This document shows, piece by piece, positions 3,499 to 16,662 of a stretch of DNA of 64,000 nucleotides (the stretch's first letter is position 1; each line of letters begins with the position of its first letter). Location of the stretch: positions 50,946 through 114,945 of the forward strand of contig CAKOXW010000001.1 in the NCBI GenBank assembly GCA_934130375.1, given 5' to 3'. The notes beneath the pieces are model-generated. The model ran no database searches. It was not told where the DNA came from and saw nothing but the letters and a program-made list of their open reading frames with translations. The position numbers were made by a program, and so were the translations under genes. The stretch is from an uncultured Bacilli bacterium. GTDB lineage: Bacteria > Bacillota_I > Bacilli_A > RF39 > UBA660.

Positions 3499-3652
3499 AA
3501 TTAATTAAAAATATTAAATCATTATTGTGATAAAAATCATTGTAGTTTATGGCTTAAGTGATAAATAGGATGTAATATAAATAAATAAAAGAGTAGGTTC
3601 TTTGTCAAATAGTGTTGGTAAACAATAAATTTGATAAATGAATTGAGATTGT

Positions 3653-3680
3653 AAGGATGATTATTATCATCCTTTTATAA
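3653..3680 (+). terminator. hairpin plus T-rich tail, candidate intrinsic terminator
   Basis: AAGGATGAttattATCATCCTT followed by TTATAAT. Confidence 0.35.
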
Positions 3681-3721
3681 TGCCCTTAATTAAGAAAATG
3701 AGTGCTAATATCCTATAATAC

Positions 3722-4099
3722 ATCTAAATCTCCTAACCTAGAACAAATAAATGATATGCTTAATAAAGCGTTTGATAAGAACGCTGATCTTGATGGATTA
3801 ATATTTCATTCAGATTAAGGCTGGCAATATCAACATCAATCATATCAACAAAGATTAAAAAATAAAGGTATAAAACAAAGTATGTCTAGGGAAGGCAATA
3901 GTATGGATAATGGAATGATGGAAAATTTCTTTGGTTTACTTAAAACAGAAATGTTTTATGATCAAGAAGATAGTTATAAAACATTAGATGATTTAATAAA
4001 AAAATTGATGACTATATTTGTTATTACAATTATGATAGAATTAAAGTTAAATTAAAAGGACTGTCACCCGTAAATTACAGGTTACAATCCTCTAATTAG
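3722..4099 (+). mobile_element. IS3-family transposase (orfB/integrase core) C-terminal fragment, 5'-truncated with an in-frame TAA: pseudogene relic
   Basis: Translation …LDGLIFHSD*GWQYQ…SMSREGNSMDNGMMENFFGLLKTEMFYDQ…YYNYDRIKVKLKGLSPVNYRLQSSN* matches the conserved IS3/IS150-type DDE C-terminal blocks (HSDrGsQY, REGNsmDNgmmEsFFgtLKtE, eRIKvkLkGLSPvqYR). A stop codon replaces the Arg of HSDRG. No upstream half and no inverted repeats are visible. Confidence 0.8.
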
Positions 4100-4229
4100 A
4101 AACTATTAATAAACTGTCCAACTTTTGGGGTTCAGTTCAGATTTACATTCGCCAACACTATTTATTATACAACCGATAAAAGTAATGCGCTTTTATCTTT
4201 TTTTTGATATAATTATAAGAGGTGGTATT

Positions 4230-9283: not shown

Positions 9284-9359
9284 GGCCTGTTGGTGAAGTG
9301 GTTAACACATTGCCCTCTCAAGGCAACATTCATGGGTTCAAGTCCCATACAGGCTACCA
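9284..9359 (+). tRNA. tRNA-Glu (anticodon CUC)
   Basis: Hand-folded 76-nt cloverleaf with acceptor GGCCTGT/ACAGGCT (G1-U72), D stem GTG/CAC, anticodon stem TTGCC/GGCAA, loop CTCTCAA (anticodon CTC), T stem ATGGG/CCCAT with TTCAAGT loop, and encoded CCA. Confidence 0.75.
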
Positions 9360-9531: not shown

Positions 9532-9747
9532 ATGCTTTCAAAAAAGGAAACGATTTTAGAAGATAAGGATTGTGCCAATATGTTGGGTTTGCAAGTTAAT
9601 GAGTATCGTGAAAGTTTAAAAAATATTAAGGCACCTGCAAAAGAGAGTATTGATGAAAAGAATATTCAGTATGATAATAATCTTTTAAAATTTTTAGGTA
9701 TTAAACAATCAGATTTAAAGAAAAGAAACTTCATAGGAGGTAATTAG
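9532..9747 (+). CDS. small protein, candidate antitoxin of a type II TA pair
   Basis: 71 aa, GAAGAGGTG RBS. Its stop overlaps the start of the PemK/MazF-like gene (TAGTG). Confidence 0.35.
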   Translation: MLSKKETILEDKDCANMLGLQVNEYRESLKNIKAPAKESIDEKNIQYDNNLLKFLGIKQSDLKKRNFIGGN

Positions 9748-10166
9748 TGAAGAAAAAGGCAAATATAGGTGAGATTTGGGTAACTATTATACCTAGACTA
9801 TATTTTGATGAAAAGACAAATAATATGAGTGTTTCTATAGAAAAAAGGCCTTGTTTAATTGTGGATGATGGAAGAGGATTTTTAATTGAGGAAAATTCTA
9901 ATTATTCTGGCTTAAAAATAACAACAAGATATTCCAATATAAAATCTGTAAATAGAGTAAAAATAGAAAACTGGAAACAATTGGGTTTGAAAAAGAAATC
10001 CTATGTAAGAATTGAATTGCCACTTAAAATTGAGGACCAACAATTGATTAGTAAAATTGGAACTTTGTCAAGTGAAGAAATTGCATTGTATCTTAAAGAA
10101 TTGGCTTGTTTCTTTAATACAGATGTACTTAATAAACTTTCAAGTAATCAATTAGTCAAACAATAA
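9747..10166 (+). CDS. PemK/MazF-family toxin-like protein
   Basis: N-terminal NIGEIWVTIIP…EKRPCLIVDD resembles the MazF/PemK signatures G(D/E)I(W/Y)…V and RPx(L/V)(V/I)(V/L). 139 aa. Start is translationally coupled to the upstream small ORF. Confidence 0.45.
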   Translation: MKKKANIGEIWVTIIPRLYFDEKTNNMSVSIEKRPCLIVDDGRGFLIEENSNYSGLKITTRYSNIKSVNRVKIENWKQLGLKKKSYVRIELPLKIEDQQLISKIGTLSSEEIALYLKELACFFNTDVLNKLSSNQLVKQ

Positions 10167-13131: not shown

Positions 13132-13530
13132 CTATTTACTATTTTTTTTACTTTTATTTTTTATAGTTTTACTTAAATTTAAAATTTTTTGTTTAGCAAT
13201 TTCATTTTGTGCTTTTGCTTCTTGAAATTCACATAATAAAGCCTCAATATCATCAGCATGATGTATGCCAATTTCACGCATTTCTTTTTCTTTTTTTGCA
13301 CTCATTATACCATTTTCAAAATATTCAATCAAATTTTTTGGTAGGTGAATATTTCCATTATAGTAGAAATCTTTATCTGCAGGACAGTATCCAAAATTAT
13401 ATAATTTATAACTTACATGACGATAATCACTATCCCATTTAGCCACATAAACAGTTCCTAATGAGTAACCCATTTTAATTGGCAATCCTTCATTGCAAAA
13501 AAGGATTTCTCTTTTTCCTTCGTATTTCAT
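13132..13530 (-). CDS. hypothetical protein (132 aa, Lys-rich C-terminus)
   Basis: Intact ORF, no recognised motif. Confidence 0.4.
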   Translation of the reverse strand: MKYEGKREILFCNEGLPIKMGYSLGTVYVAKWDSDYRHVSYKLYNFGYCPADKDFYYNGNIHLPKNLIEYFENGIMSAKKEKEMREIGIHHADDIEALLCEFQEAKAQNEIAKQKILNLSKTIKNKSKKNSK

Positions 13531-13678
13531 AACTAAACCTCCTCGTACAATTATTATAGCATGATTTTAAATAAAAGAAAATTTATTCTACTTTTTTAGG
13601 GGAAATTTAAAAGTTTTAGGGAATAAAATAGTAGGAGGTAATTTATGAACAAGTATTTAAAAAGGAAAAATATAATAC

Positions 13679-14209
13679 ATGTCTAGGTATTATAAAAAAA
13701 TATATGAAGAAAAGTATTATATAGATATTACTAAAGAGAAAGTTAAAAATAGAAATATTAATCCAAGAGAACCAAAAGAAGTTTTTGTGTACAAGCAATA
13801 TGATTTATCAAATGCAAAGTTTGATAAGAAGGGCCTTAGTAGTGATGAAAAGAGAAGTGTTGCTAGTCTAATAAAGTTTTTAGGTTGGGAAATAGATATA
13901 GTGCATAGAGTGAATATTCCTGAGGGTGTTAAAACACCTGATATCTATGCCGAAGGTGAGTACTGGGATATAAAAAATTATAAGAAATCCTTGACTTCAA
14001 AAAGTAGATTTAAAAAAATACGGCATTCTATTGAGCCAAATTTAGACCAAGCAAATAATTTTGTAATAGATTTGAATAATAAAGACTGTGATTTAACAAA
14101 TAATGAAGCAATTTTACAAATTAATAAAGTGTTTAAAGATTTTGAAAAAGCACAAAAAATAGTTTTAATTGGAAAAAGTGAACAAATATATTATTTTATA
14201 AAAAAATAA
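13679..14209 (+). CDS. hypothetical protein (176 aa)
   Basis: Intact ORF, no recognised motif. Confidence 0.4.
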   Translation: MSRYYKKIYEEKYYIDITKEKVKNRNINPREPKEVFVYKQYDLSNAKFDKKGLSSDEKRSVASLIKFLGWEIDIVHRVNIPEGVKTPDIYAEGEYWDIKNYKKSLTSKSRFKKIRHSIEPNLDQANNFVIDLNNKDCDLTNNEAILQINKVFKDFEKAQKIVLIGKSEQIYYFIKK

Positions 14210-14265
14210 AGAACTCACATCGGCGACACTCCGCCTCAACAAGTTCTCTAATGATTACATTATAT
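14208..14265 (+). repeat. GC-rich compound hairpin element R1 (AAAGAACTcacaTCGGCGacactcCGCCtcaACAAGTTCT + TAATGATTACATTATAT)
   Basis: Nested inverted repeats AGAACT/AGTTCT and GGCG/CGCC. Immediately follows the stop of the 176-aa ORF. Confidence 0.6.
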
Positions 14266-14353
14266 CAAAAGATTTATAATGTGTCAATCTCGATTTTATA
14301 CTTTAATCAAGACAATAATATTATATGCAACTAATAATAATAAATACTAAAAT

Positions 14354-14410
14354 AAAGAATTTACCTCGGCGACAATCGCCTTGACAAGTTCTTTATTGAT
14401 AACATTATAT
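14354..14410 (+). repeat. GC-rich compound hairpin element R2, ~80% identical to R1
   Basis: AAAGAATTTACCTCGGCGACAATCGCCTTGACAAGTTCTTTATTGATAACATTATAT. The downstream flanks also share ATGTGTCAAT and TATACTTTAAT with the R1 flank, so the whole ~140-nt unit is tandemly duplicated. Confidence 0.6.
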
Positions 14411-14685
14411 TAAATAAGTTATTATATGTCAATAAAAATGACACTGTAAAAAAATGGAAAAAGAAAAAGCATAACTTTCGTTATACTTTAATAGTCCCAC
14501 AAGAGGCCGACCCCCTGAAGAGCGACCTCAAAAAGAATAAAAAGGGGTTGGCTAGTGTGATACTAGCAGCCAAACCAATTTCTCGGTTTGGTACTTGTTA
14601 TAATACTTATAAATGGTATTTTTGTCAATAACTTTTTTTAAAAAAAATAAAAAAATTTGATATAATTGTTATGGGTGGTGATTAT

Positions 14686-16662
14686 ATGTCTGATTTAATT
14701 TATTTAAAGGGTGTTGGCCCTAAAACATTATCGTTATTAAATAAGTTAGAAATAAATGATATTGATGATTTAGTAACTCATTATCCATATAAATATGAAG
14801 TATTAAAAAGAAGTGATGTTTCATCTTTAAATCAAGATGATAAAATAATAATTGACGGAATAGTTGAAAATGTTCCTGTTGTATATAGATTTAAAAGTAT
14901 TGATAAGATGCAGTTTAATATAAATATTGGGAGTAATATCTACAAGGTTATAATATTTAATAGAGGATTTATGAAAACTAATATTAATATTGGTTCACAA
15001 GTAATTGTGATTGGTAAGTTTGATAAGAAGAATAATACCATAGTCGCATCTGAAATTTTACTTAATGAAAATCTAAATAATATTAAAATAATTCCTTTTT
15101 ATAGGACTTGTGATGGGTTAAATAGAAAAACATTAAAAAAAATAATTAATACTGCGCTTACTGACTATAATCCAGTTGATTTTATACCTGATTATATAAC
15201 TTTAAATAATTCGTTTATTGATAAAAAAAGTGCACTTAATAATATTCATAATCCAAGTAATATTGAAATGGTAAAAAAATCACTATTAAGACTTAAGTAT
15301 GAAGAATTATTTATGTTTATGCTTAAGATAAATGCTTTAAGAGAAAAAAATGCTTTATATAAAAAGGGGTACAATAGAAATATCAACAAGGATTTAATTG
15401 ATGAGTTTATAAGTAAATTACCTTTTGCTTTAACAAAAGACCAGTTAAATAGTGTTAATGAAATACTTAATGATTTAAATAGTGATAGTAGAATGAATAG
15501 GTTATTACAAGGTGATGTTGGTAGTGGTAAGACTATTGTTGCTTTGATTGCAATATATGGAATGATTAAAAGTGGGTATCAGTGTGCTTTGATGGCGCCT
15601 ACTGAGATTTTAGCGGAGCAACATTATAATAGCTTTAAGTCTCTTCTTCCCAATGTAAATATTTCATTACTAACTGGGAGTACTATTAAGAAGTCTAAGG
15701 ATGAGATAAATAATGAGTTAGCAAGTGGTAAGATAGAACTTGTAATTGGTACTCATGCTTTAATTGAAGATAATGTAACTTTTTCTAATCTTGGGTTAAT
15801 TGTTACAGATGAACAGCATAGATTTGGTGTTAATCAAAGAAATAATCTTAAGAATAAAGGTTCTATGCCTGATGTACTTTATATGAGTGCAACTCCTATA
15901 CCTAGAACTTATGCTTTAACTATTTATGGTGATATGGATATAAGTACAATTAAGACTATGCCAAAGGGAAGAAAACCTGTTGTTACAATCGTTAAAGATG
16001 AAGATGAAATTAAGGATGTATTATATCTTATTAAAGATAACTTAGATTTAAATCATCAAATATATGTTGTCGCACCTTTAATAGATGGTGAGAATAATGA
16101 TTCAGTTACCAAGTTGTTAAGGCAATATAAATTAGCTTTTAAAAATTATAAAATAGGTATGCTTCATGGAAAACTAAGGCCTAGTGAAAAAGAAGAGGTA
16201 ATGAAGAAGTTTATTAATGGAGAAATAGATATTTTAATATCAACAACTGTAATTGAAGTTGGAGTTGATGTTAAAAATGCAACAATGATAGTTATTCATA
16301 ATGCAAATCTTTTTGGTTTATCAACTCTCCATCAATTAAGAGGTAGGGTAGGAAGAAATTCCTATGATAATTACTGTGTATTAATTGGTAATAAAGATAA
16401 TGAAAGATTAAAGATAATGGAAACAACTTGCGATGGTTTTGAAATTAGTGAAAGCGACTTTAAACTAAGAGGTTCAGGTGATTTGTTTGGAGTTAAGCAA
16501 AGTGGTGATATGAATTTTAAGATTGCCGATATAAAGAAAGATTATAAAATACTAGAAAAAGCAAATTGTGATGCGTTGGAATTTATTAAGAAAGGAAATC
16601 TTGATAAGAATAAAGTTTTAAAGTTAGAACTATCAAGGTGTATGGATTTAAGTGATGTTTAA
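14686..16662 (+). CDS. recG: ATP-dependent DNA helicase RecG
   Basis: GGTGGTGA RBS before ATG 14686. Wedge-domain N-terminus, Walker A LLQGDVGSGKTIVALIAI, DEQHRFGV and helicase motifs QLRGRVGR. Confidence 0.9.
   Translation: MSDLIYLKGVGPKTLSLLNKLEINDIDDLVTHYPYKYEVLKRSDVSSLNQDDKIIIDGIVENVPVVYRFKSIDKMQFNINIGSNIYKVIIFNRGFMKTNINIGSQVIVIGKFDKKNNTIVASEILLNENLNNIKIIPFYRTCDGLNRKTLKKIINTALTDYNPVDFIPDYITLNNSFIDKKSALNNIHNPSNIEMVKKSLLRLKYEELFMFMLKINALREKNALYKKGYNRNINKDLIDEFISKLPFALTKDQLNSVNEILNDLNSDSRMNRLLQGDVGSGKTIVALIAIYGMIKSGYQCALMAPTEILAEQHYNSFKSLLPNVNISLLTGSTIKKSKDEINNELASGKIELVIGTHALIEDNVTFSNLGLIVTDEQHRFGVNQRNNLKNKGSMPDVLYMSATPIPRTYALTIYGDMDISTIKTMPKGRKPVVTIVKDEDEIKDVLYLIKDNLDLNHQIYVVAPLIDGENNDSVTKLLRQYKLAFKNYKIGMLHGKLRPSEKEEVMKKFINGEIDILISTTVIEVGVDVKNATMIVIHNANLFGLSTLHQLRGRVGRNSYDNYCVLIGNKDNERLKIMETTCDGFEISESDFKLRGSGDLFGVKQSGDMNFKIADIKKDYKILEKANCDALEFIKKGNLDKNKVLKLELSRCMDLSDV

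What the first reader, a model, noticed from the sequence alone, without database searches (positions are those of the whole stretch)
14208..14670. Tandem GC-rich compound hairpin elements and a GC-rich structured tract between a hypothetical gene and recG
Two ~57-nt elements (14208-14265 and 14354-14410, ~80% identical) each contain nested inverted repeats (AGAACT…AGTTCT enclosing GGCG…CGCC) followed by TAATGAT(T/A)ACATTATAT. Their downstream flanks also share ATGTGTCAAT and TATACTTTAAT, so a ~140-nt unit is tandemly duplicated. The tract continues into a strikingly GC-rich segment for this genome (CCCACAAGAGGCCGACCCCCTGAAGAGCGACCTC…GGGGTTGGCTAGTGTGATACTAGCAGCCAAACC…CGGTTTGG) with further potential helices. 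None of this codes for protein and no T-run follows the hairpins, so they are not simple terminators. This looks like small RNA gene(s), a REP/BOX-like repeat family, or a cis-regulatory structure.
Basis: seen in the sequence. Interest (0 to 1): 0.5.

Follow-up and report, generated by a model that had tools for sequence, protein, structure and literature searches.

The report
Small RNA genes guarding a toxin
The two "compound hairpins" are tiny opposite-strand RNA genes that always accompany a tRNA-cutting toxin gene, in gut bacteria and in Streptococcus prophages, where a protein antidote would normally sit, and the GC-rich tract beside them is a separate, lineage-conserved small RNA gene.

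Summary
The sequence features are real, but they only make sense on the minus strand. The region 14198-14628 holds three compact transcription units. Each has a near-consensus sigma-70 promoter, a hairpin and a U-run.

The same arrangement recurs in every evaluable relative, roughly 55 loci. It is a convergent promoter, a 17-24 bp hairpin, and a U-tract lying over the last codons. Relatives include MuF/minor-head-protein toxins of gut phages and prophages of Streptococcus pyogenes and S. pneumoniae.

Hairpin sequence varies while the structure is kept. There are compensatory changes, and G·U pairs sit almost only on the RNA strand. The window and the gut-phage locus read (L012) have no immunity ORF. 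Nothing matches Rfam, and I found no prior description.

Best reading: an RNA antitoxin or immunity partner of a polymorphic tRNase toxin. Antisense action (type I / lambda OOP-like) is slightly favoured over direct protein inhibition.

Unit C (14456-14628), the GC-rich tract, is unrelated to the toxin. It is a small RNA gene conserved divergently from recG in about 36 related gut Bacilli genomes.

The parts
13645..13686 (+). 13-codon leader ORF (MNKYLKRKNIIHV*) with a strong SD (AGGAGG). Its stop lies 5 nt after the toxin ATG. The toxin ORF has no SD of its own, so translational coupling is likely.
   Evidence: Read directly from the sequence. No + strand promoter of 9/12 or better was found in 13530-13679. 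The coupling itself is inferred.
13679..14209 (+). Standalone toxin-like gene of 176 aa. It is a PD-(D/E)xK nuclease of the CdiA-CT(II) Bp1026b tRNase family (Pfam CdiA_C, PF18451).
14259..14287 (-). Promoter of sRNA-B: TTGACA, 17 nt, TATAAT, with a TG extended -10.
   Evidence: 12/12 match. The equivalent promoter is conserved in relatives.
14198..14253 (-). Predicted sRNA-B ('alpha' type), about 55 nt. Hairpin 14207-14250, U-run 14198-14206. The 3' arm and U-run overlap the toxin stop codon (14207-14209) and its last Lys codons.
   Evidence: Fold -17.6 kcal/mol, z -3.44. CM R1 scores 79 bits. Covariation in A6.
14404..14432 (-). Promoter of sRNA-A: TTGACA, 17 nt, TATAAT.
   Evidence: 12/12 match.
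14342..14398 (-). Predicted sRNA-A ('beta' type), a tandem second copy not adjacent to any ORF. Hairpin 14351-14397, then a U-rich tail.
   Evidence: Fold -15.7 kcal/mol, z -4.11. CM R1 scores 78 bits. Strains swap alpha and beta types between positions A and B.
14600..14628 (-). Promoter of sRNA-C: TTGACA, 17 nt, TATTAT. It lies back to back with the recG promoter.
   Evidence: 11/12 match. Conserved in relatives.
14456..14594 (-). sRNA-C, the 'GC-rich tract'. P1 14570-14591; P2 14551-14567; invariant single strand CAACCCCUUUUUAUUCUUUUU 14530-14550; P3 14503-14529 with conserved loop UCAGGGGG; genus-specific extra terminator 14466-14489 plus a U-run.
   Evidence: z -4.85. Homologues next to recG in 36 relatives. 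P1 has 4 covarying pairs. P3 has 31 distinct stems in 32 sequences. The downstream gene is convergent in all but one of the loci that have a flanking ORF, and in the window itself, where sRNA-A follows on the same strand. No Rfam match.
14637..14688 (+). recG promoter (TTTAAA, 18 nt, TG-TATAAT), SD GGTGGTGA and the probable start ATG at 14686. This is a boundary of the finding, not part of the elements.
   Evidence: gene callers start recG at the equivalent of 14686.

Best explanation
Elements B and A are two tandem copies of a very small RNA gene on the minus strand. Each is a consensus promoter followed directly by one long hairpin and a U-run, giving an RNA of about 55 nt. They converge on the upstream gene, and B overlaps its 3' end. 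That gene encodes a standalone CdiA-CT(Bp1026b)-type PD-(D/E)xK tRNase toxin domain. Toxin domain and hairpin RNA form one mobile two-part cassette. In the loci read in full, the RNA occupies the place where such toxins normally carry a protein immunity gene, so it is the cassette's antitoxin or immunity partner.

Most likely mechanism (inferred, not shown): the abundant RNA is fully complementary to the toxin mRNA from its last codons into its 3' UTR. It pairs with that mRNA, so the message is cleaved or destabilised, probably through RNase III, and little toxin is made. This is how convergent type I antitoxins of Firmicutes (RatA, SR4, RNAII of par) and lambda OOP RNA work. The weak toxin promoter and the start codon coupled to a leader ORF keep toxin output low. 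Copy A is a spare of the alternative allelic type.

The GC-rich tract is not part of this cassette. It is a separate housekeeping-type small RNA gene (sRNA-C, about 100-140 nt), conserved divergently from recG across a lineage of uncultured low-GC gut Bacilli. Its invariant pyrimidine-rich single strand suggests a base-pairing regulator.
For: Shown:
- Three minus-strand units have 12/12, 12/12 and 11/12 promoters, hairpins with z of -3.4 to -4.9, and U-runs. A strict scan for such compact units finds only B on either strand of the 64 kb. A relaxed scan adds A and three weak 10/12 hits elsewhere.
- Linkage holds down to 26-45% protein identity and across different contexts. These are RadC-toxin-PNP, 9 viral contigs, and 37 of 39 metagenome loci, where the other two are cut off by contig ends. 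It also holds in chromosomal loci L139 and L141 and in S. pyogenes prophage 315.6, S. pneumoniae phage IPP24 and Bajarodcaudo virus 4.
- All these loci show a promoter at 17-nt spacing, a 17-24 bp hairpin, and a U-tract lying on the codons that end the toxin domain (KRK in most). These are the last codons of the ORF everywhere except L139 and L141, where the ORF reads on through the hairpin.
- Structure is conserved while sequence is not. Representative hairpins have z of -3.7 to -8 in 11 of 12 cases, with L022 weaker at -1.85. The window subfamily is 94% paired with 4 compensatory pairs. The phage subfamily is 97% paired, 8 of 19 pairs are compensatory, 0 of 500 shuffles reach this, and slid controls give 29-52%.
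- Selection acts on the minus-strand RNA. There are 57 G·U pairs on the sRNA strand against 5 on the complement, and 19 of 20 hairpins are more stable on the sRNA strand.
- No immunity ORF lies in the window gap or in the one gut-phage gap read (L012).
- For sRNA-C.

Inferred: that transcription occurs, that the protein is toxic, and that the RNA pairs with the mRNA.
Against: - There is no expression or toxicity data.
- The RNAs are poorly designed for antisense action. Their apical loops are only 3-6 nt, too short for stable kissing complexes. The stems are long and nearly perfect. The window subfamily has almost no single-stranded 5' tail.
- The RNAs show no complementarity to the toxin translation-initiation region above background.
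- The toxin is a 176-aa enzyme, and in phages it is a domain of a structural protein. Classical type I toxins are small membrane peptides.
- Antisense action could not protect a cell against toxin delivered as protein, which is what immunity to a polymorphic toxin has to do.
- The length of the overlap depends on toxin mRNA reading through the hairpin. On the + strand the hairpin is only sometimes followed by a U-run.
- Streptococcus prophages also carry small ORFs downstream, and these could be protein immunity genes.
Confidence: 0.45

Rival explanations
1. Same cassette, different mechanism. The hairpin RNA binds the tRNase domain directly, as a pseudo-substrate or helix mimic, and blocks it at the protein level. 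This would be a type III-like RNA antitoxin, in effect an RNA immunity factor for a polymorphic toxin. Copy A would then be an 'orphan immunity' against the other toxin allele circulating in the population.
For: - The toxin family is an RNA-binding tRNase.
- The RNA is a minimal, very stable hairpin with tiny loops and, in the window subfamily, almost no tail. That design is poor for antisense action.
- Structure is selected on the RNA strand.
- In the window and the gut-phage locus L012 the RNA sits exactly where MuF and CdiA toxins carry immunity genes, and no ORF is there (PMC5576092).
- The hairpin varies with the toxin variant, while the promoter and 5' tail stay conserved.
- Two of the three strain arrangements seen carry both alpha and beta RNA types, whichever toxin allele they have; L005 carries two beta-type copies.
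Against: - All known type III antitoxins are same-strand tandem repeats upstream of a ToxN-fold toxin and are processed by it. None of that applies here.
- The invariable overlap with the toxin 3' end is what a cis-antisense RNA looks like.
- No sequence motif is shared by all hairpin families, so there is no obvious common protein-recognition element.
- No binding data exist.
Confidence: 0.3
2. The units have no antitoxin role. They are strong terminator or insulator modules whose adjacent promoter serves another purpose. That purpose could be transcriptional interference with read-through out of the toxin gene, or in phages a lysogeny-expressed RNA that regulates late genes.
For: - The hairpin plus U-run is a bona fide intrinsic-terminator design.
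- In phages the unit lies inside the late operon between the MuF and scaffold genes.
- The promoter, spacer and palindromic 5' tail are more conserved than the hairpin, which suggests an operator or regulatory site.
Against: - The unit travels with the toxin domain, not with the phage backbone. It is present next to standalone toxin genes in four unrelated chromosomal contexts.
- It was seen only at PF18451 genes. Only this family was searched for, so it was not looked for next to short MuF genes or other toxin domains.
- A terminator alone needs no 12/12 promoter 10 nt upstream of it.
Confidence: 0.12
3. The elements are a dispersed REP/BOX-like repeat family, recombination sites (attC-like), or a cis-regulatory leader or riboswitch of recG.
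For: They are imperfect palindromes duplicated in tandem in an intergenic region upstream of recG.
Against: - There are only two copies in 64 kb.
- The strand asymmetry of G·U pairs points to RNA-level selection rather than DNA-level selection.
- recG has its own promoter and a leader of about 15 nt.
- All three RNAs run away from recG.
- No Rfam riboswitch or leader matches.
- The R-box motifs of attC sites are not matched (my reading of the sequence).
Confidence: 0.03

Closest known systems
Convergent (3'-overlapping) type I toxin-antitoxin systems of Firmicutes and their prophages: txpA/RatA, bsrG/SR4, yonT/SR6, fst/RNAII of par(pAD1)
   Same: A small, strongly expressed RNA is transcribed convergently to the toxin gene. 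It overlaps the 3' end or shares the terminator. The toxin is weakly expressed and translationally restrained. These systems are frequent on prophages. (Own knowledge; PMC5848175, PMC6563280.)
   Different: Those toxins are hydrophobic peptides of 30-60 aa, whereas this one is a 176-aa nuclease or a domain of a capsid protein. Those antitoxins are 65-220 nt with single-stranded regions and loops of 6-7 nt. Here the RNA is little more than one perfect hairpin. There is no second interaction site at the toxin ribosome-binding site.
Phage lambda OOP RNA (77-nt antisense RNA overlapping the 3' end of cII)
   Same: It is a phage-borne, constitutive, tiny RNA made of a promoter plus a terminator hairpin. 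It converges on the 3' end of one gene and overlaps it. Its action depends on RNase III. (Own knowledge.)
   Different: Its target is a regulator, not a toxin. It does not travel as a cassette with its target between genomes. Its overlap with the coding region is much longer (about 55 nt).
Type I systems with enzyme toxins: RalR/RalA (DNase, rac prophage) and SymE/SymR
   Same: They are precedents for an RNA antitoxin controlling a nuclease toxin (RalR/RalA is cited in PMC5576092).
   Different: The toxin folds are different. RalA and SymR overlap the coding or 5' region, and RalA needs Hfq. Neither system is linked to polymorphic toxins.
Type III toxin-antitoxin systems (ToxIN, CptIN, TenpIN)
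   Same: An RNA neutralises an endoribonuclease toxin. The cassette is mobile and linked to phages.
   Different: The antitoxin is an array of 34-36-nt repeats upstream on the same strand and is cut by the toxin. The toxin has the ToxN/AbiQ fold. Neither feature is present here.
CdiA-CT(II) Bp1026b/CdiI, SitA3/SitI3 and MuF polymorphic toxins carrying the cd13442/PF18451 domain
   Same: The toxin domain is the same. The phage relatives are MuF/minor-head-protein fusions, as described by Jamet et al. 2017 (PMC5576092). The variable C-terminal cassette begins at a conserved motif (YxDITxE).
   Different: Known members are neutralised by a protein immunity gene immediately downstream. Here that position holds an RNA gene on the opposite strand, and the window and the gut-phage locus read (L012) have no ORF there.
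C-rich base-pairing sRNAs of Firmicutes (RoxS/RsaE); comparison for sRNA-C only
   Same: It is about 100 nt, has its own promoter and terminator, and carries an invariant unpaired CCCC-U-rich stretch that could pair with Shine-Dalgarno regions. (Own knowledge.)
   Different: There is no Rfam RsaE match even at E of 10 or below. The helix arrangement is different. The distribution is restricted to one uncultured lineage and is syntenic with recG. No targets have been identified.

Membership tests
Type I toxin-antitoxin system | The antitoxin is an RNA encoded on the opposite strand and overlapping the toxin transcript | tested here: met
   The predicted minus-strand unit has its hairpin and U-run overlapping the toxin stop and last codons. 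The same holds in about 55 relatives. This rests on in-silico promoter and terminator prediction only.
Type I toxin-antitoxin system | The RNA pairs with the toxin mRNA and blocks its translation or triggers its decay | not testable with these tools
   Complementarity is automatic for a cis-encoded RNA. No extra pairing to the translation-initiation region was found.
Type I toxin-antitoxin system | The toxin is a small hydrophobic peptide (typical, with exceptions SymE and RalR) | tested here: not met
   The toxin is a 176-aa soluble PD-(D/E)xK nuclease.
Type III toxin-antitoxin system (ToxIN-like) | The antitoxin is a tandem array of short repeats upstream of the toxin on the same strand, separated from it by a terminator | tested here: not met
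   The RNA genes are downstream and convergent, and each has its own promoter.
Type III toxin-antitoxin system (ToxIN-like) | The toxin is a ToxN/AbiQ-fold endoribonuclease that processes the antitoxin | tested here: not met
   The fold is PD-(D/E)xK, and the closest structure is 4g6v_A.
Type III toxin-antitoxin system (ToxIN-like) | The RNA binds and inhibits the toxin protein | not testable with these tools
   This needs EMSA or in vitro nuclease assays.
CdiA_C (PF18451) / Bp1026b-type tRNase toxin domain | Sequence match above the Pfam gathering score | tested here: met
   39 bits against a cut-off of 26.6, E 9.6e-10.
CdiA_C (PF18451) / Bp1026b-type tRNase toxin domain | Same fold, with the PD-(D/E)xK catalytic core retained | tested here: met
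CdiA_C (PF18451) / Bp1026b-type tRNase toxin domain | tRNA cleavage activity and toxicity | not testable with these tools
   Inferred from family membership only.
Polymorphic toxin system (MuF family) | An N-terminal MuF / minor head protein domain carries a variable C-terminal toxin | tested here: not met
   The window gene is standalone. The feature is met in phage relatives (PHROG 581 minor head protein; PF06152 and PF04233).
Polymorphic toxin system (MuF family) | A protein immunity gene lies immediately downstream of the toxin | tested here: not met
   There is no credible ORF in 14209-14686 or in the one gut-phage gap read, L012. The slot is occupied by the RNA gene.
REP/BOX-like dispersed repeats | Many dispersed copies in intergenic regions | tested here: not met
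   Two tandem copies only in 64 kb. The whole genome was not available.
Any Rfam family (release 15) | Covariance-model match at the gathering score | tested here: not met
   Nothing in the window except a tRNA. Only noise appears at E of 10 or below in 14100-14750. Nothing in 13 related loci.

The most novel reading that the evidence does not exclude
The hairpin RNA is a true RNA immunity factor. It binds the Bp1026b-type tRNase domain and neutralises it at the protein level. A whole branch of polymorphic toxins would then be protected by a cognate, co-varying small RNA instead of an immunity protein. That branch includes MuF capsid-borne toxins of Firmicute phages, among them S. pyogenes and S. 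pneumoniae prophages, and their standalone chromosomal derivatives. Strains would stock 'orphan' RNAs against rival alleles. This would be a new architecture of RNA-protein toxin-antitoxin pair, neither type I nor type III as currently defined.
Probability: 0.3. Interest if true: 0.85.

Novelty: new variant of a known kind. Interest (0 to 1): 0.7.

Why it matters
To my knowledge, immunity to polymorphic toxins (CDI, Rhs, MuF, LXG and others) has always been ascribed to proteins. RNA antitoxins are known almost only for small membrane peptides (type I) or ToxN-like RNases (type III).

A conserved, structurally covarying small RNA locked to the 3' end of a tRNase toxin domain would add a new toxin class to RNA-mediated antitoxicity, whichever mechanism holds. 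It is found from uncultured gut Bacilli to prophages of major streptococcal pathogens. It would also explain MuF toxins that lack an immunity ORF.

The idea is directly testable in cultivable hosts, for example S. pyogenes MGAS315 prophage 315.6 and S. pneumoniae phage IPP24. The cassettes are compact, at about 0.6 kb, which makes them attractive as tools.

Separately, sRNA-C is a strongly conserved and apparently unannotated small RNA of a poorly known gut lineage.

Tried and rejected
- Rfam: the gathering-score scan of the window, an E of 10 or below scan of 14100-14750, and a scan of 13 related loci gave no family. The tracrRNA and STnc300 hits at E 6-9 are noise.
- Dispersed-repeat idea: rejected.
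- Hidden small immunity ORF: none found.
- The 132-aa ORF at 13132-13530(-) as a protein antitoxin: rejected. It has no Pfam, PADLOC or PHROG match. It is absent next to every other PF18451 gene, and from strains L020 and L145 that keep the toxin and both RNAs.
- An Fst/RNAII-like second pairing site at the toxin ribosome-binding site: no signal above background in 9 loci.
- The toxin alignment against genome contigs found no relative. That scan named the lineage and revealed that sRNA-C is conserved.
- sRNA-C as SRP RNA, 6S RNA or RsaE: no Rfam support. A 9-nt resemblance to 4.5S RNA on the + strand is not conserved in relatives.
- sRNA-C as a riboswitch or leader: rejected, because the next gene downstream is convergent in all but one of the relatives that have a flanking ORF.
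- Target prediction for sRNA-C in the window: uninformative.
- attC-like recombination site: the motif does not fit (my reading of the sequence).
Full report
**Observation**

The window is 26.7% G+C. The finding lies between ORF 13679-14209 (+) and recG.

The two repeated elements, their nested inverted repeats, the shared flank motifs and the 145-146-nt tandem spacing are all present. The GC-rich tract is there too and folds far better than shuffled sequence (z -4.85). No credible ORF lies in 14209-14686.

**Re-reading on the minus strand**

A promoter and terminator scan places three of the best sigma-70 matches in the region on the minus strand.
- TTGACA-17-TATAAT at 14287-14259, 12/12, with a TG extension.
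- TTGACA-17-TATAAT at 14432-14404, 12/12.
- TTGACA-17-TATTAT at 14628-14600, 11/12.

Each is followed on that strand by a hairpin and a U-run.

The missing T-runs are A-runs in front of the hairpins on the + strand.

The region therefore holds three compact minus-strand transcription units.
- sRNA-B (about 14253-14198).
- sRNA-A (about 14398-14342).
- sRNA-C (about 14594-14456).

A strict scan of both strands of the whole window for promoter-hairpin-U-run units of this kind returns only B. A relaxed scan adds A and three weak 10/12 hits elsewhere.

**The neighbouring gene**

ORF 13679-14209 matches Pfam CdiA_C, PF18451. According to the table in PMC9990079 this is the family of the Burkholderia pseudomallei 1026b CdiA-CT(II) tRNase and of SitA3.

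The ORF has no Shine-Dalgarno sequence of its own. A 13-codon leader ORF with a strong SD ends 5 nt after its ATG. No + strand promoter of 9/12 or better precedes it.

The B hairpin (14207-14250) and its U-run (14198-14206) overlap the stop codon and the last Lys codons of this gene.

**Linkage of the RNA to the toxin domain**

- Identical or near-identical loci occur in human-gut metagenomes.
- Homologues at 45% identity sit in a different context, RadC-toxin-PNP. They carry the same minus-strand TTGACA-17-TATAAT promoter, an AAAGAACUUGU...AGUUCUUU outer stem, a different inner stem, and a U-run.
- At 26-38% identity the domain is the C-terminal part, about 165 aa, of 533-556-aa minor-head/MuF proteins of phages. 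It also occurs as standalone genes in other chromosomal contexts.
- Annotated genomes carry it too: S. pyogenes prophage 315.6, S. pneumoniae phage IPP24, other Streptococcus phages and a rodent-gut phage.

In every locus where the sequence downstream of the domain is available I find the same design. It is a convergent promoter, almost always with a 17-nt spacer and scoring 10-12 of 12. A tail of 3-20 nt follows, then a 17-24 bp hairpin, then a U-tract lying on the codons that end the toxin domain (KRK in most), which are the last codons of the ORF except in L139 and L141, where the ORF reads on through the hairpin. Only two metagenome loci could not be judged, because the contig ends.

In the window and in the one gut-phage gap read in full (L012), no ORF lies between the toxin and the next real gene. 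This is where toxins of this class normally carry their immunity gene (PMC5576092).

**Structure, not sequence, is conserved**

At least eleven unrelated hairpin sequences occupy this position. Eleven of twelve representatives have z-scores from -3.7 to -8, and one (L022) is weaker at -1.85.

| Subfamily | Cells paired | Pairs with compensatory change | Shuffles reaching observed | Slid controls |
|---|---|---|---|---|
| Window-type | 94% | 4 of 17 | 0-3 of 500 | about 41-54% |
| Phage-type | 97% | 8 of 19 | 0 of 500 | 29-52% |

G·U pairs lie almost only on the minus-strand RNA: 57 against 5 on the complement. Nineteen of 20 hairpins are more stable on the minus strand, by about 6 kcal/mol on average. 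The helix is therefore selected as an RNA of the minus strand, not as DNA or as part of the toxin mRNA.

A covariance model of the window subfamily scores the two window copies at 79 and 78 bits and nothing else above 21 bits. It finds the homologous positions in relatives. These elements are therefore not REP/BOX-like repeats. No Rfam family matches.

**The tandem duplication**

The two copies are of two types.
- Alpha: inner stem GGCGG-AGUG-UCGCC.
- Beta: inner stem GGCGA-UUG-UCGCC.

| Strain(s) | Toxin | Copy next to the toxin (position B) | Second copy (position A) |
|---|---|---|---|
| Window | variant 1 | alpha | beta |
| L006, L020, L145 | variant 2 (75-82% identity) | beta' | alpha' |
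| L005 | variant 2 | beta' | beta |

In L145, an NCBI MAG, the toxin carries a nonsense codon while both RNA genes are intact.

In phage-type cassettes the promoter, its spacer and a palindromic 5' tail are much more conserved than the hairpin or the toxin.

**Mechanism**

What is shown:
- A conserved, RNA-level-selected hairpin gene is physically locked to the 3' end of a tRNase-type toxin domain.
- In the loci read in full, it occupies the place of the immunity gene.

What is inferred:
- That the hairpin RNA is the antitoxin.

I slightly favour cis-antisense action, like type I systems or lambda OOP RNA. Convergent 3' overlap, a strong RNA promoter against a weak toxin promoter, and prophage association are the hallmarks of Firmicute type I systems (own knowledge).

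Several points speak against it.
- The loops are very short (3-6 nt).
- The stems are near-perfect.
- The window subfamily has almost no 5' tail.
- There is no pairing to the toxin ribosome-binding site.
- Antisense RNA cannot protect against a toxin delivered as protein.

The main rival, at about 0.3, is direct inhibition of the RNase by the hairpin. That would be a type III-like RNA immunity factor. The design of that experiment is given under the next steps.

My confidence that the RNAs are the functional partner of the toxin cassette is about 0.8. My confidence in the antisense mechanism is about 0.45.

**The GC-rich tract (sRNA-C)**

sRNA-C is unrelated to the cassette. In genus-level relatives that lack the toxin, the same promoter and RNA lie directly upstream of recG on the opposite strand. 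These relatives have RecG at 67-73% identity. They are labelled as uncultured Bacilli or Mollicutes, or as Clostridium sp. CAG:1193. That they are RF39-like is my inference.

nhmmer finds sRNA-C in 36 of the roughly 40 closest RecG loci.

Its anatomy is as follows.
- P1 covaries at 4 pairs.
- P2 (GCUAGU/ACUAGC) is invariant.
- The 20-nt single strand CAACCCCUUUUUAUUCUUUU is invariant.
- P3 has 31 different stems in 32 sequences and a conserved UCAGGGGG loop. In most relatives P3 doubles as the terminator.

The next gene downstream is convergent in all but one of the relatives that have a flanking ORF; in the window the next unit downstream is sRNA-A on the same strand. sRNA-C is therefore a free-standing RNA gene, not a leader. 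Its function is unknown. A base-pairing regulator that uses the pyrimidine-rich strand is my guess, and a target scan in the window was uninformative.

The toxin cassette was inserted between the glycosyltransferase gene and sRNA-C.

**Comparison with what is known**

MuF toxins carrying this domain (cd13442) are described (PMC5576092). I found no mention of an RNA partner for them, or for any polymorphic toxin, in the searchable literature. That search does not cover subscription journals.

The cassette fails defining features of both type I (small peptide toxin) and type III (same-strand repeats, ToxN fold). I rate it a new variant of RNA-controlled toxin-antitoxin systems.

**Limits**

Everything here is in silico. 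Transcription, toxicity and rescue are untested. Only 64 kb of the genome was available. The Streptococcus prophages also carry small downstream ORFs that might encode protein immunity.

Noticed in passing
window 13132-13530 (-): A 132-aa ORF with no Pfam, PADLOC or PHROG match lies divergent from the toxin gene. It is present only in part of the window's own lineage. It is absent from strains L020 and L145, which keep the toxin and both RNAs. It looks like a second insertion between the glycosyltransferase gene and the toxin cassette.
   Followed up: partly
window 13645-13686 (+): A short leader ORF with a strong SD overlaps the toxin start codon (ACATGTCTAG). The toxin ORF lacks its own SD, which suggests translational coupling and tight control.
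   Followed up: no
window 9747-10166 (+), plus the small ORF just upstream (L001 1854-2488): A 139-aa ORF has a weak PemK_toxin hit and is preceded by a 71-aa ORF. This is a probable classical type II toxin-antitoxin pair a few kb upstream. It is replaced by another gene in strain L003.
   Followed up: no
L145 3001-3531 (NCBI MAG GCA_028727025.1): The toxin allele has a premature stop (W115*) while both sRNA genes keep perfect promoters and hairpins. The truncated protein cluster (P0004) has 15 member sequences and was read on three contigs.
   Followed up: partly
L012 3510-3590 and equivalent positions in L023, L039, L139, L141, L144: The sRNA promoter, its 17-nt spacer and the 5' tail are nearly identical between cassettes whose hairpins and toxins differ. 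The tail contains a perfect 16-nt palindrome, TTAATAATATTATTAA. This could be an operator or a recombination boundary.
   Followed up: partly
L011/L014 about 3590-3750 (between the sRNA promoter and the scaffold gene); similar in most other phage loci, but not in L012/L035: A second conserved structured segment in the gut-phage loci includes a bidirectional terminator-like hairpin (TAGACTTTCAAATGAAAGCCTA, flanked by A- and T-runs). It is lacking in L012 and L035, which appear to have a deletion there.
   Followed up: no
L142 about 2008-2124 (S. pyogenes prophage 315.6): Just beyond the sRNA promoter lies a strongly SD-preceded ORF for a small hydrophobic peptide (MFIWQMVLVALGVLVLILIVG...). It is annotated with a longer 5' extension (SpyM3_1432) that would overlap the RNA gene.
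   Followed up: no
window 4045-4103 (-): This is the best non-self hit of the hairpin covariance model (20.7 bits). It is a hairpin followed by UUUU in the gap between two + strand genes, and is probably an ordinary terminator.
   Followed up: partly
window 9284-9356 (+): The only Rfam gathering-score hit in the window is a tRNA gene (65.8 bits).
   Followed up: no
L059-L098 record titles: Several contigs carry the lineage-specific sRNA-C and a RecG at 52-57% identity, yet they are labelled Muribaculaceae, Ignavibacteriales or Actinomycetes MAGs. These are probably binning or labelling errors.
   Followed up: no
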